Of a stretch of DNA of 64,000 nucleotides, positions 3,001-24,883 are shown piece after piece. Source of the stretch: a virus; the IMG/VR virus record IMGVR_UViG_3300027659_000017, positions 33,956 through 97,955 of that record; one strand, written 5' to 3'. Under the pieces are notes generated by a model. That model worked only from the letters and a program-made list of their open reading frames with translations. It made no database searches and had not been told where the DNA came from. The translations under genes were made by a program, and so were the position numbers. Within the stretch, counting starts at the first letter, position 1, and each line of letters begins with the position of its first letter.

Positions 3001-5146
3001 CTATGAATCTAAAGTAATCATCAGAACTCCATTAGTATTTGGGGGAGATACTTATATCAATAGATATACAGAAAAGAATAATATGATGTTCTTCTATGAC
3101 TGGTTGTATGGACAGCCTGATGGATTTGAATACAACTATTATTTAAGAAGCATGATTCCTCAAGCAAGATTTAAAGCAAATAGTATTGCATATGATACTG
3201 GCTACTTGTCTGAGGTATTTAATTTTGGATCACCATCTATACCTGGTACCGGTGCATTCCCTGGAGCTTTTTATAATTTGGATTACTATGTTAATAGCAA
3301 TAGGTTCTATAATTATACAAATGATGTTTCAGAAGGTAACTGGATTGGTGACAGGTACAGAGGTTTGTGGTCTGTAAAGGAAGCATATTTCTATCTTGCT
3401 AATTCTGGTATCAGAGATTTCTTTGTTGAATCTGAAGTTCTAGTTGACTTTAGAAAACAAAGTATATACGAAGGAGGAAAACATTATGATCCGTATAGAT
3501 ATACGGACTATGTTGCAATGTTTAACATGAATCCAGACGTTATGGGAAAATTGAGTGAGTACATTTATGATTACTCACTTAGTGTATCTAAACTTTACAA
3601 CCAGTATTTTTCTGCGGGAAGTACTCAAGGTAAGTACTATGATCCTAATGTAGCCAAGTTATGTTACACATACTATCCAGATAGAATTATCTATTCATTG
3701 CCTCAACAATATGAAGCAATAAAAGATAGCTGGTTCATTTACTTAATCAATAACTACAAGGAATTCAAAGGACAAATCTCTGGAGTAAAGGCAATCAACA
3801 AAAGTGGTATATTCATTACTTTCAAAAATGAAAGTCCTTTGATGTATCAGGGTGTAGATACACTTGAAACAGATTTGAATACTAAGATTACTATTGGTGA
3901 TGGAGGATTATTCTCACAACCACAACAAGCAGTAATTAATGCTGACCGTGCATATGAATATGGTTCTTCTCAAAATAGATTGTCTGTAATATCTACTCCG
4001 GTAGGTATATTCTACATGTCTCAAAATCAAGGAAGGATATTCTCGTATGGTAGTAATCTGGATGAGATTTCTCAGGCCGGATTGAAATGGTGGTTCATCT
4101 TGTACATGCCTTATAGGCTTACACAAGACTTCCCAGACTATCCTTGGAAAGATAATCCAGTAGCAGGTATTGGATGTCAAGCAACCTATGACAGCACAAG
4201 TACCATTTTATACTTTAGTAAGAAAGATTATCACTTAAGGGATGAGTATAAAGGACGTGTGACTTATCAGCCTATGACGGCAAATGGTTCAGGAGATTAC
4301 TTTATACTTGATGGTCATAAAAACTTGAGATATAACTTGGGAGATCCTCTTATATTTGAGGATGCATCATGGACTATTAGTTATGACCCTAAGAATCAGT
4401 ATTGGATTAGTTTCCATGACTGGCATCCGGATCTAGTTATTCCTACTAAAGATATATTTATCAGTTCTAAGAAGAATACTCTGTGGAAACATAACTATAT
4501 CTGTGATGGCTACTGTAACTATTATGGTGTACAGTATGGCTTTGAACTTGAATTCCCAGTTGTATCCGGTCAAACAGTAATGACTGCTAGATCTATAGAA
4601 TACATATTAGAGTGCTATCGTAGAAATGGTAATAGTTGTATTGACCAGCACCATGTGTTGGATTACAACTTTGACCAGGCTGTGATATACAACTCTGAAC
4701 AAGTATCCGGCTACCTTAACTTGAATCTATATCCTAAGAATGATATAAACCAGTCATTGCAATATCCTAAACTAAACGGGAACCTGAGCTCATATGACAT
4801 CCTTTTCTCTAAAGAAGAAAACAAGTATAGGTTTAACCAGTTCTGGGATATAACAAAGAACAGAGATGAATTCCCTATTGGTTCAAACTATCCACCAACG
4901 GGACCAGTAATTCCAGGAACGACAATACTACAAGGTTCGTACTCTTCTGAGAATACTTGGATCACATCTCAAGATGGTTTTACACGTATACTAAATCCTA
5001 ACAATATGGATTACGGGAAACCTGAATTAGAAAGAAAGAAGTTTAGACATTACTTAAATTTCATAAATTTAAGGAGAGATAAGTGTGACAATGTAAACAT
5101 GATTCTTAAAATGTCAAGTAGTAAAAATCAATTTTCTCCTAGATAA
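2..5146 (+). CDS. Large virion tail protein, crAss-like tail stabilisation/muzzle-type (5'-truncated)
   Basis: The frame is open back to the window edge (GQRITSEIGLY...), so the TTG at 29 is probably not the real start. Aromatic/beta-rich protein of >1700 aa. The C-terminal WTISYDP...WISFHDWHP...LWKHN...CNYYG segment resembles crAss-like stabilisation proteins, and the gene lies upstream of cargo/vRNAP genes. Confidence 0.6.
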   Translation, partial: GQRITSEIGLYEEDICKYREIVQDPCLNFDKRYLISGASREKEDCTWQVYWVDAFNPDRFLNVGDPQTWPDASYNWVGGGANSMNYYSNGSDSTFLWPGVNWNKNITVINDCDFVTNTNTLNCDHIRLARLMETPCLNLTLGQSGGTMANGTYFAMIAYCIKGQKVTDWFSQSNFQFIYNVNDLSGSLTLEVNADSENFDEFILAIVEATNQQTVASQMGFYSTKTTRIAIDQINIATVKIPLEQLPITTPVYETSDQMTDVNGYLLRVGPRSKFDFNYQPLANMIRAKWASVEYPADYYMKGGNKTNYLRDEVYTFYIRWVYDTGDKSASYHIPGRAPRSFNVPGIGSRFETEALIDPNALTIDDQVFEVYNTASITPGGLTGTTTDDGGTVIAVGDMGYWQSSERYPDNRPDIWNPSEYCWTGAAAQNGSFDLCGKNIRHHKFPENFIANSTSTDAVHFRPNANIPTNGQDFAIRLMGVYFENITLPKDQQGKDIPGIVGYEILRGSREGNKTIVAKGMVNNFRTFQLRGKLAQGRTGLYANYPYNTIVPIGSSTDPDDHNYLYNDPYIKNEDSDNNVVNQSIPSDIFTFHSPDTMFRTPYLSTTEFKSYGILSGYADLEFQEPNGHPNWKLLANAVVFPMIVGGVAEAIISMLGKRTVNTPKVLSYTEQYRGLAGVGPIIFASGSSTIQSSTAQNTALGLIGTAATAYNTFVNNYYNGPATLDVGLMLALGYSGTLYEGALSNYVNVVNTNANSAGIPKIAKLEGSFEFPKWAYLDPVTRLLGAANQIAYYFAEGADIALKVFYAITPYRQYALQQVSHGFYGNMFPTSANALKRFDIDDSFYIRDNIQEVSKYQDVVSGVYRTYSINNLKRSDAVVVRTKSGPYYNPAYPTGVNIGPNLITSGMRDVSLITLGGVVQYDSSAAFLTNDLPTFDDDKKDIPFSLSIASHYGGLKTRVRNQYGQVGSENEIVITTCEQRLKDYTLAETSWTCPIDSIFYESKVIIRTPLVFGGDTYINRYTEKNNMMFFYDWLYGQPDGFEYNYYLRSMIPQARFKANSIAYDTGYLSEVFNFGSPSIPGTGAFPGAFYNLDYYVNSNRFYNYTNDVSEGNWIGDRYRGLWSVKEAYFYLANSGIRDFFVESEVLVDFRKQSIYEGGKHYDPYRYTDYVAMFNMNPDVMGKLSEYIYDYSLSVSKLYNQYFSAGSTQGKYYDPNVAKLCYTYYPDRIIYSLPQQYEAIKDSWFIYLINNYKEFKGQISGVKAINKSGIFITFKNESPLMYQGVDTLETDLNTKITIGDGGLFSQPQQAVINADRAYEYGSSQNRLSVISTPVGIFYMSQNQGRIFSYGSNLDEISQAGLKWWFILYMPYRLTQDFPDYPWKDNPVAGIGCQATYDSTSTILYFSKKDYHLRDEYKGRVTYQPMTANGSGDYFILDGHKNLRYNLGDPLIFEDASWTISYDPKNQYWISFHDWHPDLVIPTKDIFISSKKNTLWKHNYICDGYCNYYGVQYGFELEFPVVSGQTVMTARSIEYILECYRRNGNSCIDQHHVLDYNFDQAVIYNSEQVSGYLNLNLYPKNDINQSLQYPKLNGNLSSYDILFSKEENKYRFNQFWDITKNRDEFPIGSNYPPTGPVIPGTTILQGSYSSENTWITSQDGFTRILNPNNMDYGKPELERKKFRHYLNFINLRRDKCDNVNMILKMSSSKNQFSPR

Positions 5147-8100
5147 TGTATAATAAAAAAGTTCTTATTGATGCTCTCAAAACTCTGGGTACACCTTCTA
5201 CACCTAAGAAGTATAACTTCAATGATGGAGGTGCAAAAAATACTGGATTAAATGAGGTACCATACAAACAAGTTAGTGTTAAGCCATCAAATGTTGCAGG
5301 TAAAGGTTTGTTTGCAGATGAGCCAATTAAGGCCGGAGAAATAATTGGTCTTTCTCATATCAAATCTTTTTATGAAAGAGGTGGTCAGAATTATATGAAG
5401 AGTCAAGAGACACCGGTTGTAGGTAAGTATTATAATCACTCTGATGATGCATTTAATGCTGGTTCTATTATTGAAGGTAACAAAAGATATTTAAGAGCTC
5501 TCAGAGATATTGAAGCTGGAGAAGAGATACTTGGTAATTACCGTGAAGATGATGATCCTTCATTGGAAAGTCCAGATGATTTTAAGAGAGGTGGTTCTTT
5601 ACCAAGAATGCCTAGAAAGAAAAACTCCAGAGGGTATTCTAGAAGTTTAGAAGCTACAAATAAGTTCTTTACTGAAAATGCATTCTTTGCCAAACCTAAG
5701 TCAAGAAAGAATAAAGTATATGATCCTAATTCAAAATACTATAGAAAAGGAGGAGCTTCTTCTCCAGAAGAATGGGAACAAGAAATTAGAGCTATAGAAA
5801 GTCAAATAGGAAATCCTAAAAACTGGACTCTAGAGGATCGTAATCTTTTACAAGATAAACTTAATGCTTATAAAAACTGGAGAGAAACAACTCCAGAAGG
5901 ACAAGCTGTTAAAGATTCTCATAATGTACCAGGTGAGTATGAGGCTTTTATACCTGAGCATTTAAACGGAGCTCCTTATAATACATCAGGTCCAAGATAC
6001 ATAGAAGAATCTATGGAACAATATCCTGTTGGTAGTGCACCAAAAGTATATGGGAATGAGCCGGAAGATTATCAAAGATTTTTAGATTACAATCAAACAG
6101 CTCCTGAAAACAGAAGAGGTTATGAAGAGTATAGATATGGAGATCCAAATTCATATGATCACTATGGTATGTGGGATGCTCTTGGTAAACCAAAAGATTT
6201 TCAAGAAGCTCTTCAAATGAATCCTGATTGGACACCAGATGAATATGATGGATCATATCATGGATTCAGTGTTAATCCTAACACAGGTGTGTTTCTTAAA
6301 TCTGGTAAACCTGGATTAAAACCTGGAGATACTACCTGGATGGAAATAGCTGGACATTATCTTAGCCCTAGAGCAGATATAGACACACCAGTATTTGATC
6401 CAGAGATAGGTAGATTTAAATATGTTCCTAATGAAGAATATATTGAAACAAAACTTTCACCAGAAGACATAGACAAGTACGTAAAAGGAGGTTATATTGT
6501 TGAAGACATTTCTGTACCTAAACTTACTAAAGCTAGAACTGGTTTAGAAGTTATTAAAACAGCTTTACCTTTTCTTAAAAAAACTGCACCAACTATGTTA
6601 GATTTAAAAAATCTTCCAGTTGGTTTTAATCCATCTGAACTTTCATTTCCATTATTAATTAATGGTTCAAGTGGTTTTATACATACTGCACCTAACAGAA
6701 AACTTAATGATAATCTTTTTCATTTTGCAGCTAGCATGAAAAACCCATTGGAAGCAGGAAGAGCATTCAATATAATCAATCAAGCTTTTCCGTTTGCCAA
6801 TCCCTCAATATTAGAACCAGCTAGTTTAAGTCTTGACTCTTTGAATCTTTTATTAAACATGGGTCAGAAACGTGATTGGGATATGAGGTATGCTGATCAT
6901 CATATTCCATTAAACTTCTTTTCTGAACATAATGATTTATTTGGTGATCTTGGTAGTACTAGAAGTGCACTACATCAAGCAATAGGTTCACAGTCTAAAA
7001 AAACTGGTAATGAAATGGTAGATAGACTGAATGCATATCTAAATGGAAGAGGGATACAACAGAAAGCATATCTACAATCACATGCTCCAGGATTAAGACA
7101 AATCATGATTCCTAACTTTCAACTAACTAGAAAATATGCTAAAGGAGGAACTAAGAATAATCCACCTGTATTAGGATCTTTACTTAAAGCTGTTACAAGA
7201 TCTAACTATAATCCATTAAGTATACCTATTAAGTTAGCTGGTGAAAAAATTGCTAGAATAGGTCCTTTACCTTATAGAACAAAAGATGAAATAATAAAAA
7301 GTTTAACAGGTAAAATGGAACCGGCTTATTTTGGGCAAACTGGTATTTATGGTTCAGATTCATCATTATTTTGGAATGACCCAGATGGTCCATTAATGAA
7401 GGATATATATGGTCTAGGTAAAAGAGATTTAATAGCTAACTATTTTAGAGGTATTGATACAGGATTCAAACCAATTGAATATGACTTTAATAATGATCCT
7501 GGTCTACAAGCTGCCATAAAACAGTATGGTCCTTTAAAAGCTTATGAACTTTTATCTCAACAAGCTCATGGTGAACCATTAGAAGATGGTCGTATTGGTT
7601 ATGCATTACGTGTGCATAATGATGCTATGAAAAAGTATGGTTTTGATCCAGCTTTGTTTATTAAATATAATGATTGGGACTTTCATAAATTTAATCCTCT
7701 TGGATCTCCAGAATTTATAAAACAAAGTTATCATGATTTGTTTGATAGATATGGACAAGAAACTATTCCAATTGAAATTCAATCTGATGCTTCAAAAGGA
7801 AATCCTGAATTTATGATGGCAGGCAATCCAGTAACTCCAGCAGATAATATTGGAGGTCATATGGGTTTCTTACAAAGAACACCTGAGGAAGAATTTAATT
7901 TTACCACAAGAGATTTGTGGGGATTCAGACCAGAAGCATACAATAGCAAATGGAATATGGATACCAAAATGAAACAAGGCCAAACACAATTGATGGATGC
8001 TTTTGGTAAACCCTTTGTTCTTACACAGACTAATCCTATTCAATTTAACACATATAAGAACTTTAAGAAGAAGTTCTTTAAGAAGGGTGGTGCTAAGACT

Positions 8101-17000: not shown

Positions 17001-17264
17001 ATTGGTTTGGGAATAGGTGGTATTAATTCATTTATTGATTATCAAAATAACAAACCTATGCTAATGATTGATGTAAGAACTGGTAAGGTTGTTACTGTTA
17101 CAAAAGCTGAGATGGAAGCAAACCCAGGTAGATACATTAGTACCAAAAATCTAAAACGTGGTGGTGCTATTTCCAAAAAGAAAACAGGTGGTGTAGTAAC
17201 TGAGCTCACTAAAAAAGAAATAGAGCAATATGTTAAAGATGGCTATATCATTGAAGATTACTAA
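11013..17264 (+). CDS. Modular virion-associated protein (coiled-coil N-half, HExxH zincin module, DTWDLHP/GGKPF module; xKGG linkers)
   Basis: The ATG at 11013 overlaps the upstream TGA (TGATG). HEGTH at 14430-14444 with downstream EIHAR. Modules are paralogous to those in 5146..11013. Confidence 0.7.
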   Translation: MAKYRITSIPQSLPQARKGGSLKYKKAKSGKLKNFFFGNEGDYDNIAMDMFNTDMMNGSPRTAAGNQPMVEVEGAPQPSYWNMQQGCPPGKFSYNGQCFTEAEYVEYSKREMEEYERSMNQKKAASQQRFEGIVQENQQRAQEQSTRLNQEETERYYTNFKNSKKSDKIDPYMSIPNLNMDRMVDMVDPEGNPVLGEDGKPQQETLGDQLKKSFLINVTENGYTQLYPKDIVHDRIVKHGFQADQFKNIWGLDPKQVKEQLGDIMKLADEQYTNTVLNKVAKTAIEEGKSPEEVIKSLPTSWGGSELTKYIKPSQEEVDKIYSEFVKQSLEGLQKQIGVKEEDGMLRYDRSKKADKPKLDFDFESDIYLNAYDDDGTLTAQEVDPVKAYAQKWIASGKTAKERYERQMQVDAINRKDYSKTYDEAVKNDKTFKETFNIDDINLNASGEDINNMPPSDRMQTLKLNETRRLNEINQSNSERAEENIGDNAVQTKRTEDLIKLTGFTDDFNKFMQERQRLTMYGVYKNALTDSGISYADKAKVLQHLNDNKGDLAYNYLFDRSRDASDPLSQNNYNSELGSLMGGEGYGNLLTQPKIQQGKAPGADIGVGAKTWDVLTNWGDAAYHGLNAFIGNKDFSDNMWSIPGKSLNEVKADEERLGIDLRGNDQFNASLVPELLNKLNPLHAVDEIYRGYKRNGLKGASSKASKAAWDATETAAMFIPGGQGIKLLRQASLLNNTLNKGSLLNKISKGFNGLQRGINSLGLPGQYVTNYFNKSLPAFAFDAVRPYGEFHEGFENLTEGKTTEGLKNLGWGTLGITPYISKIPRIEYQTPSGRTFGIGNTGTTWTTAQNEKQFADLMKSSTLDDLKKVYSEENQIAEAEQALNNGTAFPNYTFTHPLKRQAQLSDDFQNMTNQEFAFKNLGFAPKPGGPFQLGTFNSPLKYSGKLGQLQFGTGKFFPAKLQGIEYRPNIQYDTAPMTIGFRNGGSIPKANVGMIVSGLQSLGNPTKMKTGGALPPPNLGKIVKVANSLAIPTKQMVKSLPSMGNQPGLEWLQRWYSSPELATRISNTIDPSSAFDLKKHSVSLEKLMAAQPKTYSQLAAKNGLLQTIPYYIGTGGLYSGGNLYINRLLSKANQESFTAHEGTHLYDDPRHAVTQPTVTQEWIGPDGQRRVQFDENSLVQDDYHLDANGRPTFFNQKETEMLLKPFGLSKPPLYPNKMDLFGNDYFRRYYTHPDEIHARMNQGRFMLNKSPEDPFTLDDFNKVQTLEDWFGMGKHITDKNAFLDLMNKFYGVVPAAIVGSQLLDEDTEQRKKGGSTPKAKANPPRVLGRTVQSISSMLKPTSQFRTTMNALENFGSTLPTNMSLLNSVAKPFQGINNPVMDLNVQGLLKSPTDLGGTGIIGYGDDIHKGDPWYQIDPADYGGSETWRQEGRTDAEGSIERYLGNLKPYGPDAFNNIGNFDFEIGSDGWKARNAMMGMASPLYQPQKTLGTGDFYTFDEFSNLVQKQTQYLNDRAAFDEMYPEDPGMRMWNALRGDTQRDEMFANLFPNSGIQNFKQKFYTPELLDLMKKTDRDEKGRNLYDQLVSNTNMGDNKMLNMRSLNSVTKGEDTLPSTYKDLVEYLKPDSYLYTAPAKEVVGEMRGSLGLKLEDINNATPEQLEKWKQEIIKKMYEQAKERWDKDSTIPLSGYDAYEKFFSRSGSKNKLGGAIPKARLGLSVIGKNVNNIENILNGTAKSTNLLRLVDRAITPVGYGIVGKMLASPFTYIKPYVPQTYGLKNRYDAWNLYNQIQPKYGGLSLNEDGTVAVKNFDISKPILDQIRNSERNSFETEEFNKMNGHLAINFGGVHGNGLVAKGVDDTGRQYMDFTDTWDLHPLQRFGNLLPKPIRNIEVGQVTGGKPFDLRNRIYFDGEGNYFNQDGTPLITYSKEVPGFDYTNGALQVQQNASTRNIKEIELPDNKNVEFVASSGVPENEFQQVNEEFNDAYHQSNLNKLATIGIGLGIGGINSFIDYQNNKPMLMIDVRTGKVVTVTKAEMEANPGRYISTKNLKRGGAISKKKTGGVVTELTKKEIEQYVKDGYIIEDY

Positions 17265-17308
17265 ACTTTATAAGTTTATCCATTAAATTAAATTTTAGTA
17301 TATTTATA
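17262..17308 (+). promoter_or_regulatory. Conserved intergenic element copy 1 (TAAACTT-TAT-AAGTTTA hairpin + AAATTTTAGTATATTTA box), putative late promoter
   Basis: Gapless 34/47 identity with 24881-24927. The box ends 15 nt before the ATG at 17322. TAnnTTTA resembles the Bacteroidota -7 element TAnnTTTG. Confidence 0.55.
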
Positions 17309-17321
17309 TATATAAGAAAAT

Positions 17322-20300
17322 ATGAAGAAGCAAGTAAGGATTAGAAAAGCCCTTCCAGGAGAGACCCCGGGTTACTATAACAAGACTGCTAAGTTTTTAA
17401 AAAAGGCAGCCATGGGTATGGAAGTTTCTACTACACGTACAGATCCGGCTAGAATAAATCAAATATATGATCATGTATATATCTCCTTAAAGAATGATGG
17501 AGATGCAGATACATTATATTACCAACTACTTAATCAGTATGCATTAGATAACAATACAGCATCAATGCTTATTGATTCTGCTATGGCTAAACTTGCTGAT
17601 GAAGGATATGTTGATCCTGATACTGTTAAAACTGAAGATACAGAAGGAGCAGAAGGACAACCACAGGATCCTCAGAAAAAAGCAAATGAAGATGCAGAAA
17701 GAGCAGCTTCAGATGCTGAACAAGAAGAGTTGGCAATGTCCAATGATATTTATGCTGAGGATGAGGAAAGAATGAATGATACCTCACACTTAGAGACTGA
17801 ACAAGCCCAACAAGAACAAGGTTTTAAAACAGGTGGTTATTATGATGAAGGTGGTGAAAGTGAGGAAGATGATTCTCAGTATGTTGATCCTGAGCAAGCA
17901 GCATTAGATCAATACTACTATCCGGGTACTCAGATGCAGAGACCTTTCTCTATGGAAGAGTTACTAGCTAACACACCAGGGGTGCAGAATAATGAGATTC
18001 CAGACATACGTTATTACATGCCTGACTATAATCCTGTGTCTAGTTATTATCAAGCAGAAGATTACTTACCTACAGGAGCAGAGGGAGGAGTCACTCCTCC
18101 AATAAAAAATCTTTTTTCTGGATTAGGTTCTAAACTTACATTACCTATTATTCCAACAGGTAACCCATTAACAAACCTTTCAGCAGCTCGTAAGATAATT
18201 TCTCCTTTTACATTACTTGGAGAAGGTATGACAAGATTGCCATATCTAGGAGCTAAGTTTACACCAAAACTAACAACTCCATTTACTCAGAATAGAACTG
18301 AGTTATGGAATGTTCTTAACGGTGCTACCCCTAAATTAGGAACATTCAGTCAGAATGGTACTATGATTGGTGGAGCTGATGGAAGTTTGCAAGCAGATAG
18401 ATTGTTATTGTATCAGGATGACGTTAAGAAAATAACCGAGAAATTAAAATATGGTGAGAATAACTTTACATTAGGTGACATATATCCTACTGCTGAACAA
18501 GATGGTTTAGTTAGTGGTATATATCCAATGGAAACAAAAATCATTGGTGGAGTAGATGACAATGGTAATCAGTTTTTTGAACTCAAGCATGGATTTGGAC
18601 CAAATCAAAAGTTACCTTTTGGAACAACTTCTACTAAAGCTAAAGAAGTTACATTTAAGAATAGGTTCTATTATAACACAGATCCTGAAACTGGTGGTCT
18701 TAAGATTTTTGATCCTCTTGGTAATGAGTTAATGGCAGGTGTACAAACTAAGTCACATGTTAATAGAGGAGTATTACCTTCTTGGCTTAGTGCAAACCGT
18801 GATGTTGTAGGAAGAGACATGAACTTAAGTGGAGAAGGTACACCATTTCCTAGTTATTTTGATTCAGTTGGAAAATTTGGACGAACAAATAATATAACAG
18901 GACTTCCTCCACTTACATGGAATGATCTCAGCACTAGAGGAAAAATTGGTAGAGGTATTGAAACATTTGCAACTACCGGTCTAAATCAATTCTTTAGAAC
19001 AGGTGCAAAGAACATACAGCAAGTAGACTATCCTGTATATGGATATGCAAATGCTGCATTGGGTCCAAACATTCAGAACCCGGCATCTATTCCTTTTTCT
19101 CAAACAGCATCTGATATTAAGAATGCTATTAACTACAAGTACAGATTAGGATTAAAAACAGCATTGTATGCTGGTATTCCATCTTATTTAGGCTATCAGA
19201 TATATGACTCATTTGCAAATCCATGTCAATGTGATGATGCTAATGAACCTAACTTCATGGCCAAGGATACATTTGGTAAATGTCCATGTGGTACAGATGT
19301 GGGACCAACAAGAGTCTTAGATCCAGAAGCTATACCGGTAGAAGAAAATACTGTAGAACCAAGTGACTTGGAAAGACCTGATAGTATTCAATTCTTAGAA
19401 GGCCAACATCCATCTGACTATAATTACTACAGATACAATGATTCAAATATTGTTAATCCAAATATTCAAAATGAAGCTATAGGAGATGACTTTAAGAAAG
19501 GTGGTGTAACTAAGAACAGATTCATTAAGAAAATGGTTGAGATGTATGCCGAAGGTGGTGATACTGATTTAGGACTATTTGGTCAAGGTAAACGTACAGA
19601 TACCTTAACTGATGATGTTACAAATAGAAAGACTTCTTTCTTAAATACATTAAAGAATAATTCAAACAAAGCAGTATCTGCAGATATCTATAAAAATGCC
19701 CAAGGAAATCCACAGGTTCTAAACATGTTGATGAAAGATGGTCCTAAAGAAAATCTTGCAGAAGATGCATTTGAAACAAATAAGTTAAGCACTGATCCTA
19801 CTGCAGCATATGGGGGATTCATTGATATGGATTCTGATGATCCTCTTACAAAATTTATTTATGGAGGAGATGAGACTGAGTACTATGAGCCATATGGATT
19901 AACTCAAGCAAGAGATGGTATTACTATTCAGAATAGAGCAGGAGATCTAAGAGGTGTGCAAGGTCAAATGGACTTTGATGAATGGTCTCAAGGAGAACAA
20001 GAAGATTGGGAAGCTGCAAATCCAGGTGAAGATTTTGAAGCATGGAGAAGCAGTCCAGAAGCACAGGATTCATATATTAATTACATTAATTTTTATAATG
20101 ATTCTTTGGATGAGTACTTTAATGAGGGTCAGAGAACAAGAACATTTGATCCTAATGCACCTGGTGTAGTGTCTGATACTTTTAATCCTTGTGGTCCGGG
20201 TACAGTTTGGAGTAAAACATACCAAACATGTGTCCCAAAAGCTACAATAAATCCCATCCCTACACCAGTAAGAATGCCTCAAGGTTTATTCAGAACACTA

Positions 20301-21431
20301 GCTCCTTGGAATCCAGCATTAACTGCAGCTGGATCATGGGTAAAACAAAAAGGTACTCCATACTATATCAATGATGGTCAATCATACAATGGTCTAATGC
20401 CTTCAACACCTGTAGCTAGTTATACTACCAAAGCAGGTAGAAATGGTGAACGTAAGAAATGGCTTGATATCTATGAAGTAGATGGTGATGGTACAGGTAC
20501 TGAAGTTCCTATGGAAGATTTAAGTCAGTTTGAACAGATGATGAGACATCGTCCTAATAAAGCTGGTAAGAAACCTAGCCGTAAAGAATATCTTAACTCA
20601 AAGTTGAGAGAAGATTCTTGGAACAATGAAAATTGGGATCAATTATCTGAAAGAGATAAGAGAGCAGCTAGAAATACCTACACATTTGAAAATGAAGATG
20701 AGAGAAACTTGTGGGATAATATAAGATATAGAGCTCAAGGAACTAGATATAGTGAATCTGGTAGAACCAAAAAAGTAAAAGAAAGAAGATTGGGTGGTGA
20801 AAGTGAATCCACTAATGGCTTTGGTAACAGTTCTAATTCATCTGTACTAGACCCATTCTCTGCATCAGGAAATCTATCTGCAAATCAGTCTCAAGCAAAT
20901 TCATTAGGTCAGCCCCCTATTAATTATAACCCTATGGGAGATAATCCTTTTTCTTTTGATAAAGAACAAGGACATACCCTAGGTAAATCTGAAAATGCTG
21001 GAGATAAAAAATATGTAGGTGTTGAACGGAAACGAAAGGATATCTACAATCTTGACCCTGAAGGTATGATCAATGTTGGTAATAATGCTGCCAGAGGTGT
21101 ATTAGGTGCCTGGGATAGAATAAAGAATGCAAAGATTGAGTTCAATAACACTCTAGACATCACAGATCCGTATAATAACTATGCATCATCTTATGATATT
21201 AGAAAAGGAAACTGGAATGACACTGGACATAAAGCAGGTTCATTGAATTATGATCAAAAAGGTTCTGATAGAAATAGTCAATCAACCTTTGGTAGTGGTA
21301 AAAGATATGGTGGTTATATGGCCTATGGTGGTTATACTGAACCAGGATATGAAGATGACGAAGAAGTTTACATGACTCCAGAAGAACTAGAACAATTCTT
21401 AGCAGCAGGAGGACAAGTTGAATATTTATAA
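17322..21431 (+). CDS. Large low-complexity virion-associated protein with multiple xxGG motifs and Cys-rich microdomains
   Basis: 1369-aa ORF with FKTGG, YDEGG, AEGG, FKKGG, YAEGG, AAYGG, RRLGG and KRYGGYMAYGG. Contains CQC...CPC and CGPG...CVP motifs. C-terminal tag is shared with neighbours. Confidence 0.65.
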   Translation: MKKQVRIRKALPGETPGYYNKTAKFLKKAAMGMEVSTTRTDPARINQIYDHVYISLKNDGDADTLYYQLLNQYALDNNTASMLIDSAMAKLADEGYVDPDTVKTEDTEGAEGQPQDPQKKANEDAERAASDAEQEELAMSNDIYAEDEERMNDTSHLETEQAQQEQGFKTGGYYDEGGESEEDDSQYVDPEQAALDQYYYPGTQMQRPFSMEELLANTPGVQNNEIPDIRYYMPDYNPVSSYYQAEDYLPTGAEGGVTPPIKNLFSGLGSKLTLPIIPTGNPLTNLSAARKIISPFTLLGEGMTRLPYLGAKFTPKLTTPFTQNRTELWNVLNGATPKLGTFSQNGTMIGGADGSLQADRLLLYQDDVKKITEKLKYGENNFTLGDIYPTAEQDGLVSGIYPMETKIIGGVDDNGNQFFELKHGFGPNQKLPFGTTSTKAKEVTFKNRFYYNTDPETGGLKIFDPLGNELMAGVQTKSHVNRGVLPSWLSANRDVVGRDMNLSGEGTPFPSYFDSVGKFGRTNNITGLPPLTWNDLSTRGKIGRGIETFATTGLNQFFRTGAKNIQQVDYPVYGYANAALGPNIQNPASIPFSQTASDIKNAINYKYRLGLKTALYAGIPSYLGYQIYDSFANPCQCDDANEPNFMAKDTFGKCPCGTDVGPTRVLDPEAIPVEENTVEPSDLERPDSIQFLEGQHPSDYNYYRYNDSNIVNPNIQNEAIGDDFKKGGVTKNRFIKKMVEMYAEGGDTDLGLFGQGKRTDTLTDDVTNRKTSFLNTLKNNSNKAVSADIYKNAQGNPQVLNMLMKDGPKENLAEDAFETNKLSTDPTAAYGGFIDMDSDDPLTKFIYGGDETEYYEPYGLTQARDGITIQNRAGDLRGVQGQMDFDEWSQGEQEDWEAANPGEDFEAWRSSPEAQDSYINYINFYNDSLDEYFNEGQRTRTFDPNAPGVVSDTFNPCGPGTVWSKTYQTCVPKATINPIPTPVRMPQGLFRTLAPWNPALTAAGSWVKQKGTPYYINDGQSYNGLMPSTPVASYTTKAGRNGERKKWLDIYEVDGDGTGTEVPMEDLSQFEQMMRHRPNKAGKKPSRKEYLNSKLREDSWNNENWDQLSERDKRAARNTYTFENEDERNLWDNIRYRAQGTRYSESGRTKKVKERRLGGESESTNGFGNSSNSSVLDPFSASGNLSANQSQANSLGQPPINYNPMGDNPFSFDKEQGHTLGKSENAGDKKYVGVERKRKDIYNLDPEGMINVGNNAARGVLGAWDRIKNAKIEFNNTLDITDPYNNYASSYDIRKGNWNDTGHKAGSLNYDQKGSDRNSQSTFGSGKRYGGYMAYGGYTEPGYEDDEEVYMTPEELEQFLAAGGQVEYL

Positions 21432-21439
21432 GCAAACCA

Positions 21440-24400
21440 ATGATAAAAGTTAGAATTAAAAAATTGCCGAAGGCAAAAACAGGATACCAACTTCAAGGAG
21501 CTTTGGTTAATGATGTTCCTGCAATGGGAGGAGCAGATTACAATGCATACATTGGTAAAGAAAAACTTAGAGAGAGTAAATATATTACTGCTGTTCCAAG
21601 AGATAAAGCTAATCTAGAGGCTGAGGGAGGTGAAACTGTTTACGGTGACATCAATGGAGATGGAATGCCGGAACATAAAATCATCAAAGGACCAAGACAC
21701 CATGCTGGTGGAGTACCACTAAGTCTTCCTGAAGATACATTTATCTTTAGTGATACAAGAAGTATGAGAGTTAAGGACCCGACAATACTTGCTATGTTTG
21801 GTAAGTCTCCTGGTAAGTCTTATACCCCAGCTGAATTGGCTAAACAATATGATATCCAGAAGTACAGAAAGATTTTAGAAGATCCTGATACAGATGCAAT
21901 AGAAAGAAAGTCTGCTGAGTTGATGATCAAAAAGTATGTTATTAAGTTAGGATGTCTTGCTCTTGCACAAGAGTCAATGAAAGGATTCCCACAAGGGATT
22001 CCTGTTGTTGCTAAACCATGTATGGAAGCAAGAGGTATTACAGAAGAACAAATCTTGCCAAGTAAAGAAATCTCTGGTTTGAATGATCAGCTGAAGAAAC
22101 AAATGGAGCAGCAACAGAATTCTGAAGAGACAATGGAATCAGAGAATCAGCAGAATCCTATGGAAGAAGCTCAGGAGATGAACCAAGGTCAACCAGTAGC
22201 TCAAGCACAACAAAGTCCATCACCAGAAGCAATGATGAGATTTGGTGGTATGAGAAGATTGAGAAGAGCTGCAGAAGGAATGATGCAACCATCTCCAGAA
22301 GAGATGGCTATGATGCAACAACAACAGCAACAACCACAACAAGGTGGGGGTGATGAGATGATGCAAATCATGCAAGAGGTTCAGGCTGCACTACAAAGAG
22401 GTGCACAACCTAATGAAGTTGTTATGAGTTTATTACAGAATGGTCTTCCACCTGAAGCTATAGTACAGATATTTACACAACTTGGTGCTTCACAAGAAGA
22501 GGCTGTGGGTATTATCCAACAAGCTATGTCTCAACAACAAGGTGGTGGAGAAGATCCAATGATGGCTCAAGGTCCTCCAATGTCTGAGCAAGAAATGATG
22601 CAGCAACAAGGAGCTCCAATGGCAATGTATGGTATGTCTATGGGAGGGTATGATATGCCTTTCTATGATATTCCACAAGCTGAGTATGGTATGGCAATGG
22701 GTGCTAACCCACAAAACTATCAAGGAAGACAAGGTAGAGTACCTTCTACAGGTCCTATGTACAATTTAGCTAAAGCACAAAATGGTGTAGAAACACCTGC
22801 ACCAATTGTCATTGATGGTACTGCAATGACTGATGCACAAATTGAACAAGAAATTTGGAACATTAAACAAAAAGACCCAAATGCTGTAGTACATGTTAAA
22901 CGTAAGGATGAAAAAGGAAATGTTAAAACACAAGTATTAAAACAATCTGGTTTTACAGTTCCTACTGGAAAAGATCTTGATGCTGCTGGTTTAGAGGGGT
23001 TCCCTGATACACCAAATGGTAGAATGGCAGCTGCACAGTATTTATTGATTAAAGAAAATATGTCTAACCCAGCGGTTAGAAAAGAAATGATTGCTAATAC
23101 AAGATCAGTTGTTGAAAATCCAGAAGCTTGGAGAGGAAAAGGTTCAACAAGTGCCGATCCAAATGATAAATGGTCTGTTAAATACGGTACTGAACCAACT
23201 GATGAGGAAATCATTAATGCTTCTTTGATGTTAAATAAAAGAAACTTGATGTTCCAAGCAAATGATGTGGATCCTCAATTGTTTTCTGACGTAGGTAATA
23301 AATTAGATGACCCAGCTACTGTAGTTAGTGAAGGTTATATAAATCCTAAAACACAAAAACCTTATACTACAACAGAGGCAACAGCTGCTATTAATGATTT
23401 AAGAAGTAAAGGTTTTACAAGTGTAGCCACAATGGCACAAAATCTTGGAGTTCCATTGGATCCAAGAGGTAAAGACAGAGTACTTCAACAATCTACAATG
23501 CATGCTTATGCACTTTCACATAAAAACTTTAGTGAAGGTAAATATGATAACGACCCTAATACAAAGTATGCAATGGATAACTTCTTGGGTAATGTTAATC
23601 AAGTACAATCCGGAGCTGGTGATGAATCTACTATGGGAGGTTTATATGGTGCATTAGGTAATAAGATTTCACCTCTTGATGACGAGTATGATTATTCAAA
23701 TAACAATTGGTATCAAACAAATTCAAGAGGTAGTCTTCAAAGAGGTAAATATACAACTTGGGGTGATACTCAAGCTGGTGAATACTTTATGGTAGGTAAA
23801 AGAAGTCAAGTTTATGACGATTTACCAGCAGATCCAAACTGTCAATGTGAAGATCAAAGTAAACCTAACTATAGTACATACAAAGATGACAAAGGAAACT
23901 GTACATGTACACCACCTACTGAAGTAAAGAATTGTCCTTGTGTTAAATCAGATGGTACTGAGATAAACATGACACCTAATCCGGATAATACATGTCCTCC
24001 TTGTACTGAAGATAAGCAAGTTCCAGTTCCTAAACCTCCTGCTGAGTTTTGGTTGCAAGATACAATCAAGACTGCTGGTGCATTTGGGGATTTGATGGGT
24101 GTTAAAAAATACATGGGATGGTCACCGGGAATGGATTACAAAAATCCACGACCTACATTCTTAGATCCTACAAGAGAACTTGCTGCCAATTCAGAACAAG
24201 CAGGTATTCAATCTCAAGCATTAGGTCAATTTGCTGGGTCACAAGCATTGTCTGCAAGATCAGCAGGTATTCAAGGTCAAGCTGGCAAGAATGCTGCAGA
24301 TATACTTTCTAAGTATAACAATGCTAATGTCAACATAGCAAATCAATTTGAGTTAAAAGGTACTGATATTGCAAACCAAAACACTGCATTAAGACAAGCA

Positions 24401-24883
24401 AATGCTTCTAAACTTTATGACCAGAATACTATTGCAAATCAGCAGTTTGATAATTCTAAGTTGGCATTGAGAAACAACTTGAGAAACTACTATACTAATG
24501 CTATTACTAATAAATGGAAGACAGATGCATTAAATCAAATGTATCCTAACTATGCAGTAAGACCTGGTAATGGTGGTGAGATGGGATTCCAACCAACACC
24601 AAGATCAGTAACTGGTCAAGGAGCTGGTAGTACTACAGGTAGTTGGCAAAAAGCAATGGATGAATGTAAAGCAAACAACCCTGGAGCAAGTGAAGCAGTA
24701 TTGTTAGCTTGTGCTAAATCTTCAACAGGTTCATATGGTTCACAACCAAGTACAGGAGCTAATGCAAATGCTGTCAATACAATGTATGGTTCTCAACAAC
24801 CTCAACGTGAAAGAGATGGAGGAGAAATATATGATGATGGTGGTTATGTTCACATTAACTCATGGCTTCCATTTATCTTGTAA
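21440..24883 (+). CDS. Virion-associated protein (N-terminal EAEGGE...HxxGG domain, Gln/Met-rich region, Cys-rich motif, Asn/Gln-rich helical C-terminus)
   Basis: 1147-aa ORF. NLEAEGGETV...GPRHHAGGVPL..PEDTFIFSD resembles a domain recurrent in crAss-like structural regions. Q/M-rich tract at ~22090-22700. Confidence 0.6.
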   Translation: MIKVRIKKLPKAKTGYQLQGALVNDVPAMGGADYNAYIGKEKLRESKYITAVPRDKANLEAEGGETVYGDINGDGMPEHKIIKGPRHHAGGVPLSLPEDTFIFSDTRSMRVKDPTILAMFGKSPGKSYTPAELAKQYDIQKYRKILEDPDTDAIERKSAELMIKKYVIKLGCLALAQESMKGFPQGIPVVAKPCMEARGITEEQILPSKEISGLNDQLKKQMEQQQNSEETMESENQQNPMEEAQEMNQGQPVAQAQQSPSPEAMMRFGGMRRLRRAAEGMMQPSPEEMAMMQQQQQQPQQGGGDEMMQIMQEVQAALQRGAQPNEVVMSLLQNGLPPEAIVQIFTQLGASQEEAVGIIQQAMSQQQGGGEDPMMAQGPPMSEQEMMQQQGAPMAMYGMSMGGYDMPFYDIPQAEYGMAMGANPQNYQGRQGRVPSTGPMYNLAKAQNGVETPAPIVIDGTAMTDAQIEQEIWNIKQKDPNAVVHVKRKDEKGNVKTQVLKQSGFTVPTGKDLDAAGLEGFPDTPNGRMAAAQYLLIKENMSNPAVRKEMIANTRSVVENPEAWRGKGSTSADPNDKWSVKYGTEPTDEEIINASLMLNKRNLMFQANDVDPQLFSDVGNKLDDPATVVSEGYINPKTQKPYTTTEATAAINDLRSKGFTSVATMAQNLGVPLDPRGKDRVLQQSTMHAYALSHKNFSEGKYDNDPNTKYAMDNFLGNVNQVQSGAGDESTMGGLYGALGNKISPLDDEYDYSNNNWYQTNSRGSLQRGKYTTWGDTQAGEYFMVGKRSQVYDDLPADPNCQCEDQSKPNYSTYKDDKGNCTCTPPTEVKNCPCVKSDGTEINMTPNPDNTCPPCTEDKQVPVPKPPAEFWLQDTIKTAGAFGDLMGVKKYMGWSPGMDYKNPRPTFLDPTRELAANSEQAGIQSQALGQFAGSQALSARSAGIQGQAGKNAADILSKYNNANVNIANQFELKGTDIANQNTALRQANASKLYDQNTIANQQFDNSKLALRNNLRNYYTNAITNKWKTDALNQMYPNYAVRPGNGGEMGFQPTPRSVTGQGAGSTTGSWQKAMDECKANNPGASEAVLLACAKSSTGSYGSQPSTGANANAVNTMYGSQQPQRERDGGEIYDDGGYVHINSWLPFIL

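What the first reader, a model, noticed from the sequence alone, without database searches (positions are those of the whole stretch)
5146..24883. Candidate virion 'polyprotein effector cargo' system: four adjacent proteins built from modules separated by recurring basic-x-Gly-Gly / KAxxG linkers
Seen: a short motif recurs at apparent domain boundaries. In 5146..11013: FNDGG (~5218), FKRGG (5581), YRKGG (5740), KARTG (6529), YAKGG (7135), FKKGG (8077), RKKGG (9070), WAEGG (10111), TKDGG (10909). In 11013..17264: ARKGG, FRNGG (13953), MKTGG (14034), RKKGG (14940), NKLGG (16116), LKRGG, KKTGG. Many more occur in the next two ORFs (FKTGG, FKKGG, YAEGG, RRLGG, KRYGG, MRFGG, ERDGG, KAQNG). The SET domain, ART-like domain, both zincins and the three GKPF modules are each bracketed by such motifs. 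I did not see comparable regular punctuation in the giant genes downstream. Established: Gly-Gly-directed processing of virion polyproteins occurs in ASFV and adenovirus, and T4/phiKZ head proteases cut internal head proteins at short motifs. Inference: these are packaged precursors cut into separate enzymes for injection, or the motifs are repeated capsid/scaffold docking tags. Either would give the phage a plug-and-play way to load host-takeover effectors.
Basis: partly seen in the sequence, partly recalled or inferred. Interest (0 to 1): 0.9.

Follow-up and report, generated by a model that had tools for sequence, protein, structure and literature searches.

The report
Gly-Gly seams in crAss-phage cargo proteins
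Four large proteins that this uncultured crAss-like phage probably carries in its particle share a short conserved peptide ending in Gly-Gly at every module joint and chain end. Two of the four are strings of swappable modules, but nothing yet shows that the peptide is cut.

Summary
The motif is real. The window lies in a 98-kb uncultured crAss-like phage. The four genes after the muzzle gene carry [KR]-x-G-G 20 times, against 5.5±2.3 in shuffles. Aromatic/Met-x-x-G-G is 2-6x enriched in the same four gene slots of 16 related phage loci, and depleted in the muzzle protein and the downstream giants. Homology breakpoints, AlphaFold confidence dips, and cassette loss and permutation in orthologues all fall on the motif.

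The four proteins are of two kinds. A and B are hypervariable 'polyvalent' proteins with fixed end-pieces and swappable middles. C and D are conserved, colinear core proteins with invariant Gly-Gly inside variable linkers. A, B and C end in a tail; B, C and D start with a leader; both occur fused inside A.

Cutting is unproven and somewhat disfavoured:
- No known maturation-protease family was found.
- The embedded zincin-like modules are absent or degenerate in many relatives that keep the motif.
- crAss001 cargo protein gp45 carries the motif at the edges of its portal-bound and tail-bound segments, once inside a continuously modelled stretch.

Best reading: an uncut seam or handle; cleavage about 30%. 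This scan has noted the motif in at least eight other crAss-like genomes. I found no paper describing it.

The parts
2..5146 (+). Muzzle protein gene (context; upstream anchor of the cargo block). It is motif-poor.
   Evidence: Pfam crAss_MUZ, E 8.8e-11. No [KR]xGG. Phi-xx-GG 3 against 1.6 expected.
5146..11013 (+). Slot A, 1955 aa. A hypervariable polyvalent protein with a fixed N-terminal piece (MYNKKVLID..) and a fixed C-terminal piece (..YELGD..LGYTFEQIK).
   Evidence: 92 homologues of 1076-3304 aa share the ends but not the middles. In related loci the slot length runs from 458 to 1741 aa.
5299..5541 (+). SET domain (aa 52-132), bracketed by FNDGG (aa 25-29) and FKRGG (aa 146-150).
   Evidence: Pfam PF00856, 30 bits against a cut-off of 22.4. 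Present in most homologues.
5581..5595 (+). Seam FKRGG.
   Evidence: Breakpoint peak at aa 145.
5740..5754 (+). Seam YRKGG.
   Evidence: Breakpoint peak at aa 203.
6436..6555 (+). Internal fused 'tail + leader' (aa 431-470: ..LSPEDIDKYVKGGYIVEDIS + VPKLTKARTG). It has the same grammar as an ORF end followed by an ORF start.
   Evidence: Breakpoint peaks at aa 437 and 469. AlphaFold pLDDT below 50 over aa 447-479. Common in homologues.
6583..7140 (+). Folded alpha/beta module (aa 480-665) of unknown function. Its last strand ends at TRKYAKGG.
   Evidence: AlphaFold block pLDDT mostly about 80-90. No PDB match.
7135..7149 (+). Seam YAKGG.
   Evidence: GG invariant in 19 aligned sequences. pLDDT below 50 from here onward. 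The cassette-loss seam against P0005.
7150..8076 (+). Cassette 'GKPF1' (aa 669-976): a Pro-rich linker, an amphipathic first helix, then a confident domain that ends ..FGKPFVLTQTNP.
   Evidence: AlphaFold mean pLDDT 81, pTM 0.79. No PDB fold. The whole cassette is absent from the 79-94% identical orthologue P0005. Not hit by the GKPF profile built on B.
8077..8091 (+). Seam FKKGG.
   Evidence: Breakpoint peak at aa 972. pLDDT below 50 over aa 980-1000.
8092..9069 (+). Module aa 983-1307.
   Evidence: 11 homologues, with different neighbours. No Pfam hit, and no ART-PolyVal hit. Its order is permuted in P0006.
9070..9084 (+). Seam RKKGG.
   Evidence: Breakpoint peak exactly at aa 1312. P0007 lacks the following cassette, with the seam at DRKLGG.
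9085..10110 (+). Cassette 'GKPF2' (aa 1314-1655).
   Evidence: The GKPF profile hits aa 1403-1650.
10111..10125 (+). Seam WAEGG, followed by PLKGG.
   Evidence: Breakpoint peak at aa 1657.
10213..10905 (+). Zincin-like module with HEGTSH (an HExxxH; nt 10504-10521).
   Evidence: Homologous to the B zincin. In this subfamily the second His is often missing. No Pfam hit.
10909..11010 (+). Seam TKDGG plus the slot-A C-terminal tail.
   Evidence: The tail is conserved in nearly all 92 homologues, always a few residues after GG.
11010..17264 (+). Slot B, 2084 aa from the GTG. It more likely starts at the ATG at 11013 (MAKYRITSIPQ..). Hypervariable, with a fixed leader and a fixed tail (..GYIIEDY).
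   Evidence: Homologues start MAKYRITSIPQ. Slot length runs from 863 to 1934 aa in related loci. Module-wise hits appear in 162 representatives.
11058..11072 (+). Leader seam ARKGG (aa 17-21).
   Evidence: Relatives have FKDGG, YRNGG or YAPGG at aa 12-16.
13953..14048 (+). Two tandem seam-leader units (FRNGG-SIPKANVG.., then MKTGG-ALPPPNLG..).
   Evidence: A DNA repeat family D1 of only 72-80% identity reflects the peptide.
14049..14939 (+). Zincin module with a canonical HEGTH (nt 14430-14444) and a downstream PDEIHAR.
   Evidence: H, E, H and the E of ..EIHAR are invariant or nearly so in 21 sequences. More than 100 relatives. Weak PDB profile hit to minigluzincin MJ1213, E 0.9. No Pfam MPTase-PolyVal hit.
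14940..14954 (+). Seam RKKGG.
   Evidence: Representative hits start at query 331-356, which is aa 1310-1335.
14955..16115 (+). Module aa 1316-1702, unknown function. It also exists as stand-alone proteins.
   Evidence: P0100 (376 aa) is this module plus KNKNGG plus a tail.
16116..16130 (+). Seam NKLGG.
   Evidence: Hits end at query 728-735, which is aa 1707-1714.
16131..16889 (+). Cassette 'GKPF3'.
   Evidence: Profile hit at aa 1721-1915. Stand-alone relatives P0130, P0136, P0146 and P0152.
17151..17261 (+). Seams LKRGG and KKTGG, plus the slot-B tail (..ELTKKEIEQYVKDGYIIEDY).
17322..21431 (+). Slot C, 1369 aa. A conserved colinear core protein with a leader (MKKQVRIRKALPGETPG..), a tail (..MTPEELEQFLAAGGQVEYL), 6 Phi-xx-GG sites, and a GKPF-like domain at aa 291-424.
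   Evidence: Many of the 84 homologues cover 100% of the query at about 50% identity. Most GG pairs are invariant or nearly so in 48 sequences, some inside variable flanks. GKPF profile hit at 2.9e-18.
21440..24883 (+). Slot D, 1147 aa. The most conserved core protein, with a leader (MIKVRIKKLPKAKTG..), a Q/M-rich low-complexity middle, and a C-terminus ..GG..GGYVHINSWLPFIL.
   Evidence: 1503 homologues, mostly full-length. GG at aa 269, 402 and 1127 is 99-100% conserved in poorly conserved surroundings. A protein-atlas lead to crAss_CARG1 was not confirmed.

Best explanation
SHOWN. The window comes from an uncultured crAss-like phage. The four genes after the muzzle gene occupy fixed slots, MUZ-A-B-C-D-E-F, across a large metagenomic clade.
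- Slots A and B are polyvalent proteins of the kind described by Iyer et al. 2017. They have constant end-pieces and, between them, interchangeable cassettes: a SET domain, zincin-like modules, and several confident folds with no known relative.
- Slots C and D are conserved core proteins.
- All four share one short-linear-motif grammar. A seam [FYMW]-[KQRA]-x-G-G sits in a predicted disordered linker at each module boundary. It is usually followed by a Pro-rich stretch and an amphipathic helix (consensus ..LPKAQLGxIVK..) that starts the next module.
- A, B and C end in a tail (L-[ST]-x-x-E-[IL]-x-x-aromatic-x-x-G-G-hydrophobic-x-E..). B, C and D begin with a basic leader that ends in the seam or a KAxxG variant.
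- Tail plus leader also occur fused inside proteins. ORF boundaries and internal joints are therefore equivalent.

INFERRED.
- The proteins are packaged cargo that is ejected into the host.
- The seam is mainly an uncut flexible joint plus a recognition handle. It lets any cassette be inserted without disturbing packaging and domain-by-domain threading through portal and tail.
- The terminal tails and leaders serve as packaging or ordering handles.
- Cutting at some seams, in the head or after ejection, remains possible.
For: Phage identity: crAss_MUZ, Crass_capsid, CrAss_Ring_1 and CrAss_Ring_2 all hit.

Slot synteny and slot-specific ends appear in 16 IMG/VR loci.

Enrichment and depletion of the motif.

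Seams coincide with homology breakpoints. They coincide with AlphaFold pLDDT below 50 next to domains at 80-95. They coincide with cassette loss and permutation in orthologues.

GG is invariant inside variable linkers of C and D.

GG codons vary between GGT and GGA, and there are no long DNA repeats. The constraint is therefore on the peptide.

The same motif occurs in small, very basic proteins of the head-gene module.

crAss001 gp45 (cargo C1) carries the motif as follows:
- AYGG at 207-210, just before the tail-barrel-bound helix 214-245.
- FAEGG at 260-264, just after that helix.
- AFGG at 425-428, at the start of the portal-bound segment 425-552.
- FAYGG at 559-563, just after that segment, followed by a tail-like MSVEELEALMVQSG (weak hhalign match).
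The segment boundaries are from PMC10172136. The stretch 425-552 is described there as one modelled segment, so G428-W429 is uncut.

The crAss001 giants run at 150, 270 and over 300 kDa, so they are packaged unprocessed (PMC6235969).

No known maturation-protease family was found in the record.
Against: No experiment exists on any member of this clade. Packaging, ejection and the uncut state are all inferred.

The pattern is exactly how T4 and phiKZ protease motifs look: one short motif on many probable head-internal proteins, often 12-30 residues from the N-terminus. Conserved P-side residues (aromatic, then K or Q) and a small residue after GG are also typical of a protease site.

B has an apparently intact HExxH...E zincin.

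The genome record is only 82% complete by CheckV, so a protease could lie in the missing part or be of an unknown family.

The crAss001 giants that run full-length lack the motif, so they say little.

Sequence homology between these proteins and gp45 was not established.
Confidence: 0.5

Rival explanations
1. Polyprotein processing. The seam is the recognition site of a protease, either the embedded zincin-like modules or an unidentified head protease. That protease dices A-D and trims the leaders, in the head or after ejection, releasing separate enzymes.
For: The motif has conserved P-side residues and invariant GG.

It sits in exposed disordered linkers.

It occurs 12-30 residues from many N-termini, like a T4 capsid-targeting peptide that ends in the cut site.

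The B zincin keeps HExxH plus a downstream Glu.

Iyer et al. proposed zincin processing of polyvalent proteins, and phage P1 DdrB is processed.

Modules exist as stand-alone proteins.
Against: No S78, S77, C48, C5 or C39 family was found.

No zincin-like module was found in slots A and B of 9 of the 16 related loci, which keep 4-7 motifs per 1000 residues in C.

The slot-A zincin subfamily often lacks the second His.

Motifs often come in pairs 6-18 residues apart. In the C-terminal tails a cut would release only 5-7 residues.

crAss001 gp45 residues 425-552 are modelled continuously through AFGG-W (PMC10172136).

N4 vRNAP and the crAss001 giants are packaged uncut.
Confidence: 0.3
2. Passive seam. 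The motif is only a good flexible linker that travels with cassettes when they are duplicated or recombined. It is a fossil of how modules are joined, and nothing recognises it.
For: Gly-Gly is a natural helix breaker. The seams are where cassettes are gained, lost and permuted. The internal tail+leader looks like a fossil ORF boundary.
Against: Generic linkers keep composition, not positions. Here GG is 92-100% conserved at fixed columns where the flanks are 20-50% conserved.

The aromatic and K/Q positions are also non-random.

The same roughly 20-residue seam+leader precedes non-homologous domains.

There is no DNA-level conservation that would make it a recombination substrate.

The motif is shared with conserved, non-shuffled proteins C and D, and with crAss001 gp45.
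Confidence: 0.13
3. Sticker motif for a cargo condensate. Aromatic plus basic residues next to glycine, in Q/G/M-rich disordered linkers, act as multivalent 'stickers'. They condense the cargo, together with the small basic proteins and DNA, into the capsid cargo zone.
For: D has a Q/M/G-rich low-complexity region with YG and MGG motifs. The motif recurs on lysine-rich small head-module proteins. crAss001 has a distinct protein zone inside the capsid.
Against: Positional invariance of single sites is unusual for sticker-spacer regions. A and B linkers are short (10-30 residues) and sit between folded domains. There is no direct evidence.
Confidence: 0.07

Closest known systems
Polyvalent proteins of phages and conjugative elements (Iyer, Burroughs, Anand, de Souza, Aravind 2017, PMC5512222)
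   Same: Giant phage proteins that combine unrelated enzyme-type domains in one chain. They are encoded beside virion genes and are thought to be injected with the DNA. Zincin-like metallopeptidase modules are frequent, including HExxH-xxD and HExxxH variants like the two seen here. Relatives P0048 and P0082 carry Pfam ART-PolyVal.
   Different: That paper does not mention linkers or crAss phages (0 occurrences of 'linker' and 'crAss'). The features here are not described there: a conserved seam peptide, slot-specific end-pieces, matched tails and leaders, and a fixed two-slot arrangement next to conserved core proteins. Pfam MPTase-PolyVal and ART-PolyVal do not match this genome.
Cargo proteins C1 (gp45) and C2 (gp46) of Bacteroides phage crAss001 (Bayfield et al. 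2023, PMC10172136)
   Same: Genes directly after the muzzle gene and before the giant RNA-polymerase-type genes. gp45 is Gly-rich (12.6% Gly, 21 GG). It starts with a basic leader ending FDTGG. It carries aromatic-x-x-GG at the edges of the segments seen bound to the tail barrel and the portal.
   Different: No detectable sequence homology: no PDB sequence hit, no crAss_CARG1 match, and hhalign gives nothing except a 35-residue tail-like stretch at E 0.068. crAss001 has two modest cargo proteins (842 and 534 aa). This phage has four of 1147-2084 aa, two of them hypervariable enzyme carriers. The paper does not mention the motif or any cleavage.
T4 internal proteins with a capsid-targeting sequence cut by gp21, and phiKZ/SPN3US head-protease processing of ejection proteins (own knowledge; PMC10052503 listed)
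   Same: One short motif shared by many head-internal proteins. Short N-terminal leaders end in that motif.
   Different: Those motifs end in Glu, not Gly-Gly, and depend on an S77-type prohead protease. None was found here. No cleavage data exist for crassviruses.
Gly-Gly-directed processing by adenovirus protease and ASFV pS273R (clan CE), and double-glycine leaders cut by C39 peptidases (own knowledge)
   Same: A hydrophobic residue a few positions before G-G, with a small residue after it.
   Different: The hydrophobic residue is one position further from GG than in the adenain consensus. No C5, C48 or C39 family is in the record. These are eukaryotic viruses or bacteriocin exporters.
Cargo-loading peptides of encapsulins, and docking domains of modular synthases (analogy only, own knowledge)
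   Same: Short terminal peptides that address cargo to an HK97-fold shell, or that order separate polypeptides head-to-tail. This is what the tails and leaders could do.
   Different: No sequence relation. The function here is untested.

Membership tests
Polyvalent proteins (Iyer et al. 2017) | Several unrelated domains of disparate activity in one polypeptide | tested here: met
   A holds a SET domain (Pfam), a zincin-like module, and two AlphaFold-confident domains without known relatives. B holds an HExxH zincin and further modules. Only SET has database-level support.
Polyvalent proteins (Iyer et al. 2017) | Encoded by a phage next to virion or packaging genes | tested here: met
   The genes lie between the muzzle/ring genes and the giant downstream genes, in a genome with Crass_capsid.
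Polyvalent proteins (Iyer et al. 2017) | Zincin-like MPTase hub domain | tested here: inconclusive
   HExxH plus a downstream Glu is conserved in B and in more than 100 relatives. A has HExxxH. Pfam MPTase-PolyVal gives no match in the genome. The PDB profile hit to a minigluzincin reaches only E 0.9.
Polyvalent proteins (Iyer et al. 2017) | Delivered into the host with the DNA | not testable with these tools
   This needs virion and infected-cell proteomics.
Crassvirus cargo proteins (crAss001 C1/C2) | Gene position directly after the muzzle gene, same strand, before the giant RNAP-type genes | tested here: met
Crassvirus cargo proteins (crAss001 C1/C2) | Sequence membership in Pfam crAss_CARG1 (PF25725), or homology to gp45 | tested here: inconclusive
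   No PF25725 match in the genome. The hhalign comparison of the D profile with gp45 is negative. The protein atlas gives only a lead, score 0.91 at rank 11. Motif-level resemblance only.
Crassvirus cargo proteins (crAss001 C1/C2) | Presence inside the virion | not testable with these tools
   The clade is uncultured. No phage record holds a homologue of A, B, C or D.
Gly-Gly-directed viral polyprotein processing (adenain / pS273R, clan CE) | A clan CE cysteine protease encoded by the virus | tested here: not met
   No PF02902 or PF00770 match at E up to 1 and 10 respectively. Caveat: the record is 82% complete.
Gly-Gly-directed viral polyprotein processing (adenain / pS273R, clan CE) | Cleavage after or within G-G demonstrated | not testable with these tools
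   No proteomic data exist. One gp45 motif appears uncut in the published model (PMC10172136).
T4/phiKZ-type head maturation with capsid-targeting leaders | Prohead protease of family S77 or S78 | tested here: not met
   No match. No protease family appears among 20 structural-region ORFs scanned with Pfam.
T4/phiKZ-type head maturation with capsid-targeting leaders | Short N-terminal leader ending in the shared motif | tested here: inconclusive
   Leaders ending in Phi-xx-GG at residues 5-30 occur in A, B, D, many relatives, the small basic proteins and gp45. Removal of the leader has not been shown.
Double-glycine leader / C39 peptidase systems | C39 peptidase domain | tested here: not met
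   No PF03412 match.

The most novel reading that the evidence does not exclude
The seam, leader and tail peptides form a virion cargo-addressing code. [quoted passage not shown] The cargo is thereby loaded and ejected as one ordered string. Any enzyme cassette framed by the seam can be dropped into slot A or B and delivered without changing the machinery. A covalent joint (the fused tail+leader inside A) and a non-covalent joint (an ORF boundary) would be interchangeable.
Probability: 0.2. Interest if true: 0.85.

Novelty: new variant of a known kind. Interest (0 to 1): 0.6.

Why it matters
Crassviruses are among the most abundant phages known, yet how they load and eject several megadaltons of protein is open.

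A conserved peptide code marks every module joint and chain end. It is shared from an uncultured clade with more than 1500 protein clusters to the structurally solved crAss001 cargo protein. This gives a concrete, mutable handle on that problem.

It also shows how these phages exchange injected enzymes as cassettes: SET methyltransferase, metallopeptidase-like modules, ART, phosphatase and unknown folds.

If the seams are cut, this would be a new phage maturation system. If they are handles, it is a new cargo-loading principle with obvious use for loading foreign proteins into phage particles.

Tried and rejected
1. A DNA-level signal (Shine-Dalgarno-like AAAGGAGG, or a recombination repeat). 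Rejected: GG codons are a mix of GGT and GGA, and the longest junction repeats are 25 nt at 72-80% identity.

2. Known phage relatives. tblastn of A, B, C and D against 50,697 phage records found nothing. The capsid protein finds only matches of 29% identity or less.

3. Single-protein pattern scans of viral contigs with B and C found nothing. An alignment of C homologues worked.

4. Pfam and PHROGs on A-D and on ten sub-segments gave nothing above threshold except SET. PHROGs on E-H gave only LysM.

5. PDB sequence and profile searches for A, B, C, D and the zincin gave nothing significant.

6. Fold searches of both AlphaFold models found nothing. Foldseek gave no match at E up to 0.001. VIA-align gave a best Z of 3.1, to RNase Sa. 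The absence of a match is reported only here and is not evidence of a new fold.

7. Protease families S78, S77, C48, C39 and C5, and Pfam MPTase-PolyVal, ART-PolyVal and crAss_CARG1, gave no match in the genome.

8. The D = C1 homology suggested by the protein atlas was not confirmed.

The genomic context of individual homologues therefore came only from the search for related loci.

10. The 'three GKPF modules' are not one family. The profile joins A 1403-1650, B 1721-1915 and C 291-424, but not A 669-976.

11. Both AlphaFold jobs went to A. No model was made of B, C, D or of a tail-leader pair.

Full report
WHAT THE WINDOW IS

The window is the right-hand 64 kb of a 97,955-bp IMG/VR virus record. 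The record is linear and 82% complete by CheckV. Pfam identifies the crassvirus major capsid protein, tail ring proteins 1 and 2, and the muzzle protein. The muzzle gene ends at 5146.

Eight large genes follow on the same strand:
- A, 5146-11013
- B, 11010-17264
- C, 17322-21431
- D, 21440-24883
- E to H, running up to 52858

A replication block lies on the other strand. In crAss001 the genes after the muzzle gene encode the packaged cargo proteins gp45 and gp46 and the virion RNA-polymerase giants. Virion packaging of A-D is therefore an inference from position, not a result.

In the window:
- [KR]-x-G-G occurs 20 times in A-D against 5.5±2.3 in 2000 shuffles.
- It occurs 6 times in the 11,014 residues of the muzzle protein plus E-H.
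- Plain GG is barely enriched, so the context of GG is what is special.

In 92 homologues of A the motif is 3.3 times over expectation. The consensus is aromatic or Met, then K/Q/R/A, then any residue, then G-G.

In 16 related loci the observed/expected ratios for aromatic-x-x-G-G are 5.8 (A), 1.9 (B), 4.2 (C) and 3.6 (D). They are 0.6 (E), 0.3 (F) and 0.5 (muzzle).

GG codons vary freely, and no long DNA repeat underlies the junctions. The constraint acts on the peptide.

THE MOTIF MARKS MODULE BOUNDARIES

Three independent lines agree.

1. Homology breakpoints. In A they cluster at residues 36, 145, 203, 437, 469, 675, 972, 1312, 1657 and 1926, which are the motif sites. Over 237 family proteins, 42% of 1569 breakpoints lie within 12 residues of GG against 17% expected, with a sharp peak at 0 to -10.

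2. AlphaFold models built with homologue alignments.
- For A 395-700, the folded core is A 480-665. Confidence is below 50 over the internal tail+leader and from YAKGG onward.
- For A 655-1000, mean pLDDT is 81. Confidence is below 50 only over the two seams. The amphipathic helix after each seam is the first helix of the next module.

3. Orthologue comparison.
- P0005 is 79-94% identical and lacks exactly the cassette A 669-982, with the joint at YAKGG.
- P0006 has two cassettes in the opposite order.
- P0007 lacks the cassette after DRK-x-GG.
- The same module is followed by different neighbours in different proteins, always through a seam.
- Some modules exist as stand-alone proteins.

TWO KINDS OF PROTEIN

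A and B are hypervariable. Their homologues share only the first 20-45 and last roughly 30 residues, and have different middles. In related phages slot A ranges from 458 to 1741 aa and slot B from 863 to 1934 aa. In one phage the two slots are a single 751-aa protein.

C and D are conserved and colinear. D has 1503 homologues. Many C and D homologues cover the full length at about 50% identity. In C and D the Gly-Gly pairs are invariant columns inside poorly conserved linkers. Examples are C 1158 and D 269 and 1127.

A WIDER GRAMMAR

- A, B and C end in a tail of the form L-[ST]-x-x-E-[IL]-x-x-aromatic-x-x-G-G-hydrophobic-x-E.
- B, C and D begin with a basic leader (..RI..P..A.xG).
- The two occur fused inside A (aa 431-470) and in many homologues as ..ELTPEEIEEYAKGGYIIEDIS-VPELTKAxxG... 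ORF boundaries and internal joints are thus equivalent.
- The motif also occurs on small, lysine-rich proteins of the head-gene module outside the window.

MODULE IDENTITIES

- Only the SET domain has database support.
- B has a canonical HEGTH with a conserved downstream ..EIHAR. This is shared by more than 100 relatives.
- A has HEGTSH. It belongs to a subfamily in which the second His is often lost.
- The two zincin-like modules are homologous to each other.
- Pfam MPTase-PolyVal and ART-PolyVal do not match this genome. However, two homologues of A carry ART-PolyVal.
- The 'ART-like' label for A 983-1307 is unsupported.
- Of the three 'GKPF' modules, two are homologous to each other and to a conserved domain of C (aa 291-424). 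The third is not detectably related.
- Neither modelled domain has a significant PDB match.

CUT OR NOT

Points in favour of cutting:
- The P-side residues are conserved and the linkers are exposed.
- Leaders resemble T4 capsid-targeting peptides.
- B carries an apparently intact zincin.
- Iyer et al. proposed that embedded zincins process polyvalent proteins.

Points against obligatory cutting:
- No S78, S77, C48, C5 or C39 family is in the record.
- My profiles find no zincin-like module in slots A and B of 9 of the 16 related loci, although those phages keep the motif in C and D.
- Many sites come in pairs 6-18 residues apart, and a cut in the tails would free only 5-7 residues.
- The crAss001 giants migrate at 150, 270 and over 300 kDa.

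The most telling point concerns crAss001 gp45, which carries the same motif:
- FDTGG ends its leader.
- AYGG (207-210) lies four residues before the tail-barrel-bound helix 214-245, and FAEGG (260-264) lies after it.
- AFGG (425-428) lies at the start of the portal-bound segment 425-552, and FAYGG (559-563) lies just after it.
- The paper describes 425-552 as one resolved segment, so the bond after G428 is intact in the virion.

This places the motif at the edges of bound, ordered segments of a real cargo protein. That is what a hinge-plus-handle would look like. None of this excludes cutting at other sites, or cutting after ejection.

COMPARISON WITH WHAT IS KNOWN

A and B fit the published class of polyvalent proteins (PMC5512222). 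All four fit the positional class of crassvirus cargo proteins (PMC10172136).

I did not find the following in either paper or in library searches:
- the conserved seam peptide,
- the slot-specific end-pieces,
- the matched tails and leaders,
- the two-slot cassette arrangement.

Other first-stage readers of this genome, and follow-up reports on at least eight other crAss-like genomes in this scan, describe the same motif and leave the same question open. It is a recurrent clade-wide feature, not a peculiarity of this window.

VERDICT

My odds for what the seam is:
- an uncut seam or handle: about 0.5
- a protease site: about 0.3
- a passive linker: about 0.13
- condensate stickers: about 0.07

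It is a new variant of a known kind. Interest 0.6.

Noticed in passing
window 11010-11015: B is listed from a GTG at 11010. All homologues start MAKYRITSIPQ, so the ATG at 11013 is the likely start. It overlaps the TGA stop of A by one base (TGATG), which suggests translational coupling of A and B.
   Followed up: partly
window 18192-18593 (C aa 291-424): The profile built on the B 'GKPF' cassette hits a conserved domain of core protein C (E 2.9e-18) and its homologues in 9 related loci. The swappable cassette is therefore a paralogue of a core cargo domain.
   Followed up: partly
window 10159-10215 (A), about 11265-11310 (B), 19224-19290 and 20181-20237 (C), about 23840-24010 (D): Short Cys-rich motifs recur in all four proteins: CPEGYTYDPDKLGC, CPPGKFSYNGQC, CGPGTVW..C, CQCDD..CPCGTD, and CQCED..CTC..CPC..CPPC. 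They are conserved in C and D homologues. They may be small metal-binding or disulfide knots.
   Followed up: no
window about 22080-22730 (D aa 215-430): A Q/M/G-rich low-complexity region with a repeated MM-aromatic-GG-xRRLRRAxEGM unit. One homologue (P0263) has the unit duplicated.
   Followed up: partly
window about 16975-17040 (B aa 1990-2010): A hydrophobic, Gly-rich segment (LATIGIGLGIGGINSFI) follows the GKPF cassette. Stand-alone GKPF proteins have a similar hydrophobic stretch. It may be a membrane-inserting segment.
   Followed up: no
outside the window: genome 7738-8106, 19933-20472, 21109-21960, 22114-22734 (L001/L002): Small, very lysine-rich proteins in the head-gene module carry the same seam motif. 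The 283-aa one has six copies and ends ..RERFGG. They may be internal head or DNA-associated proteins.
   Followed up: partly
window 35644-46515 and 46517-52858: Giant G (3623 aa) has only a DUF7831 hit near its C-terminus. Giant H (2113 aa) has a LysM domain at aa 1788-1826 and ends ..SKLGGN. No RNA-polymerase family was detected by Pfam or PHROGs in E-H.
   Followed up: no
L017 7682-9937: In one related phage, slots A and B are a single 751-aa protein. It has an A-type N-terminus and a B-type tail.
   Followed up: no
L016 and L018, 10004-14702: In two related contigs, core protein C is split into two ORFs. The second (249 aa) starts with a fresh leader, MYSKKQLRRFLPGG. This is another case of an ORF boundary placed at a seam.
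   Followed up: no
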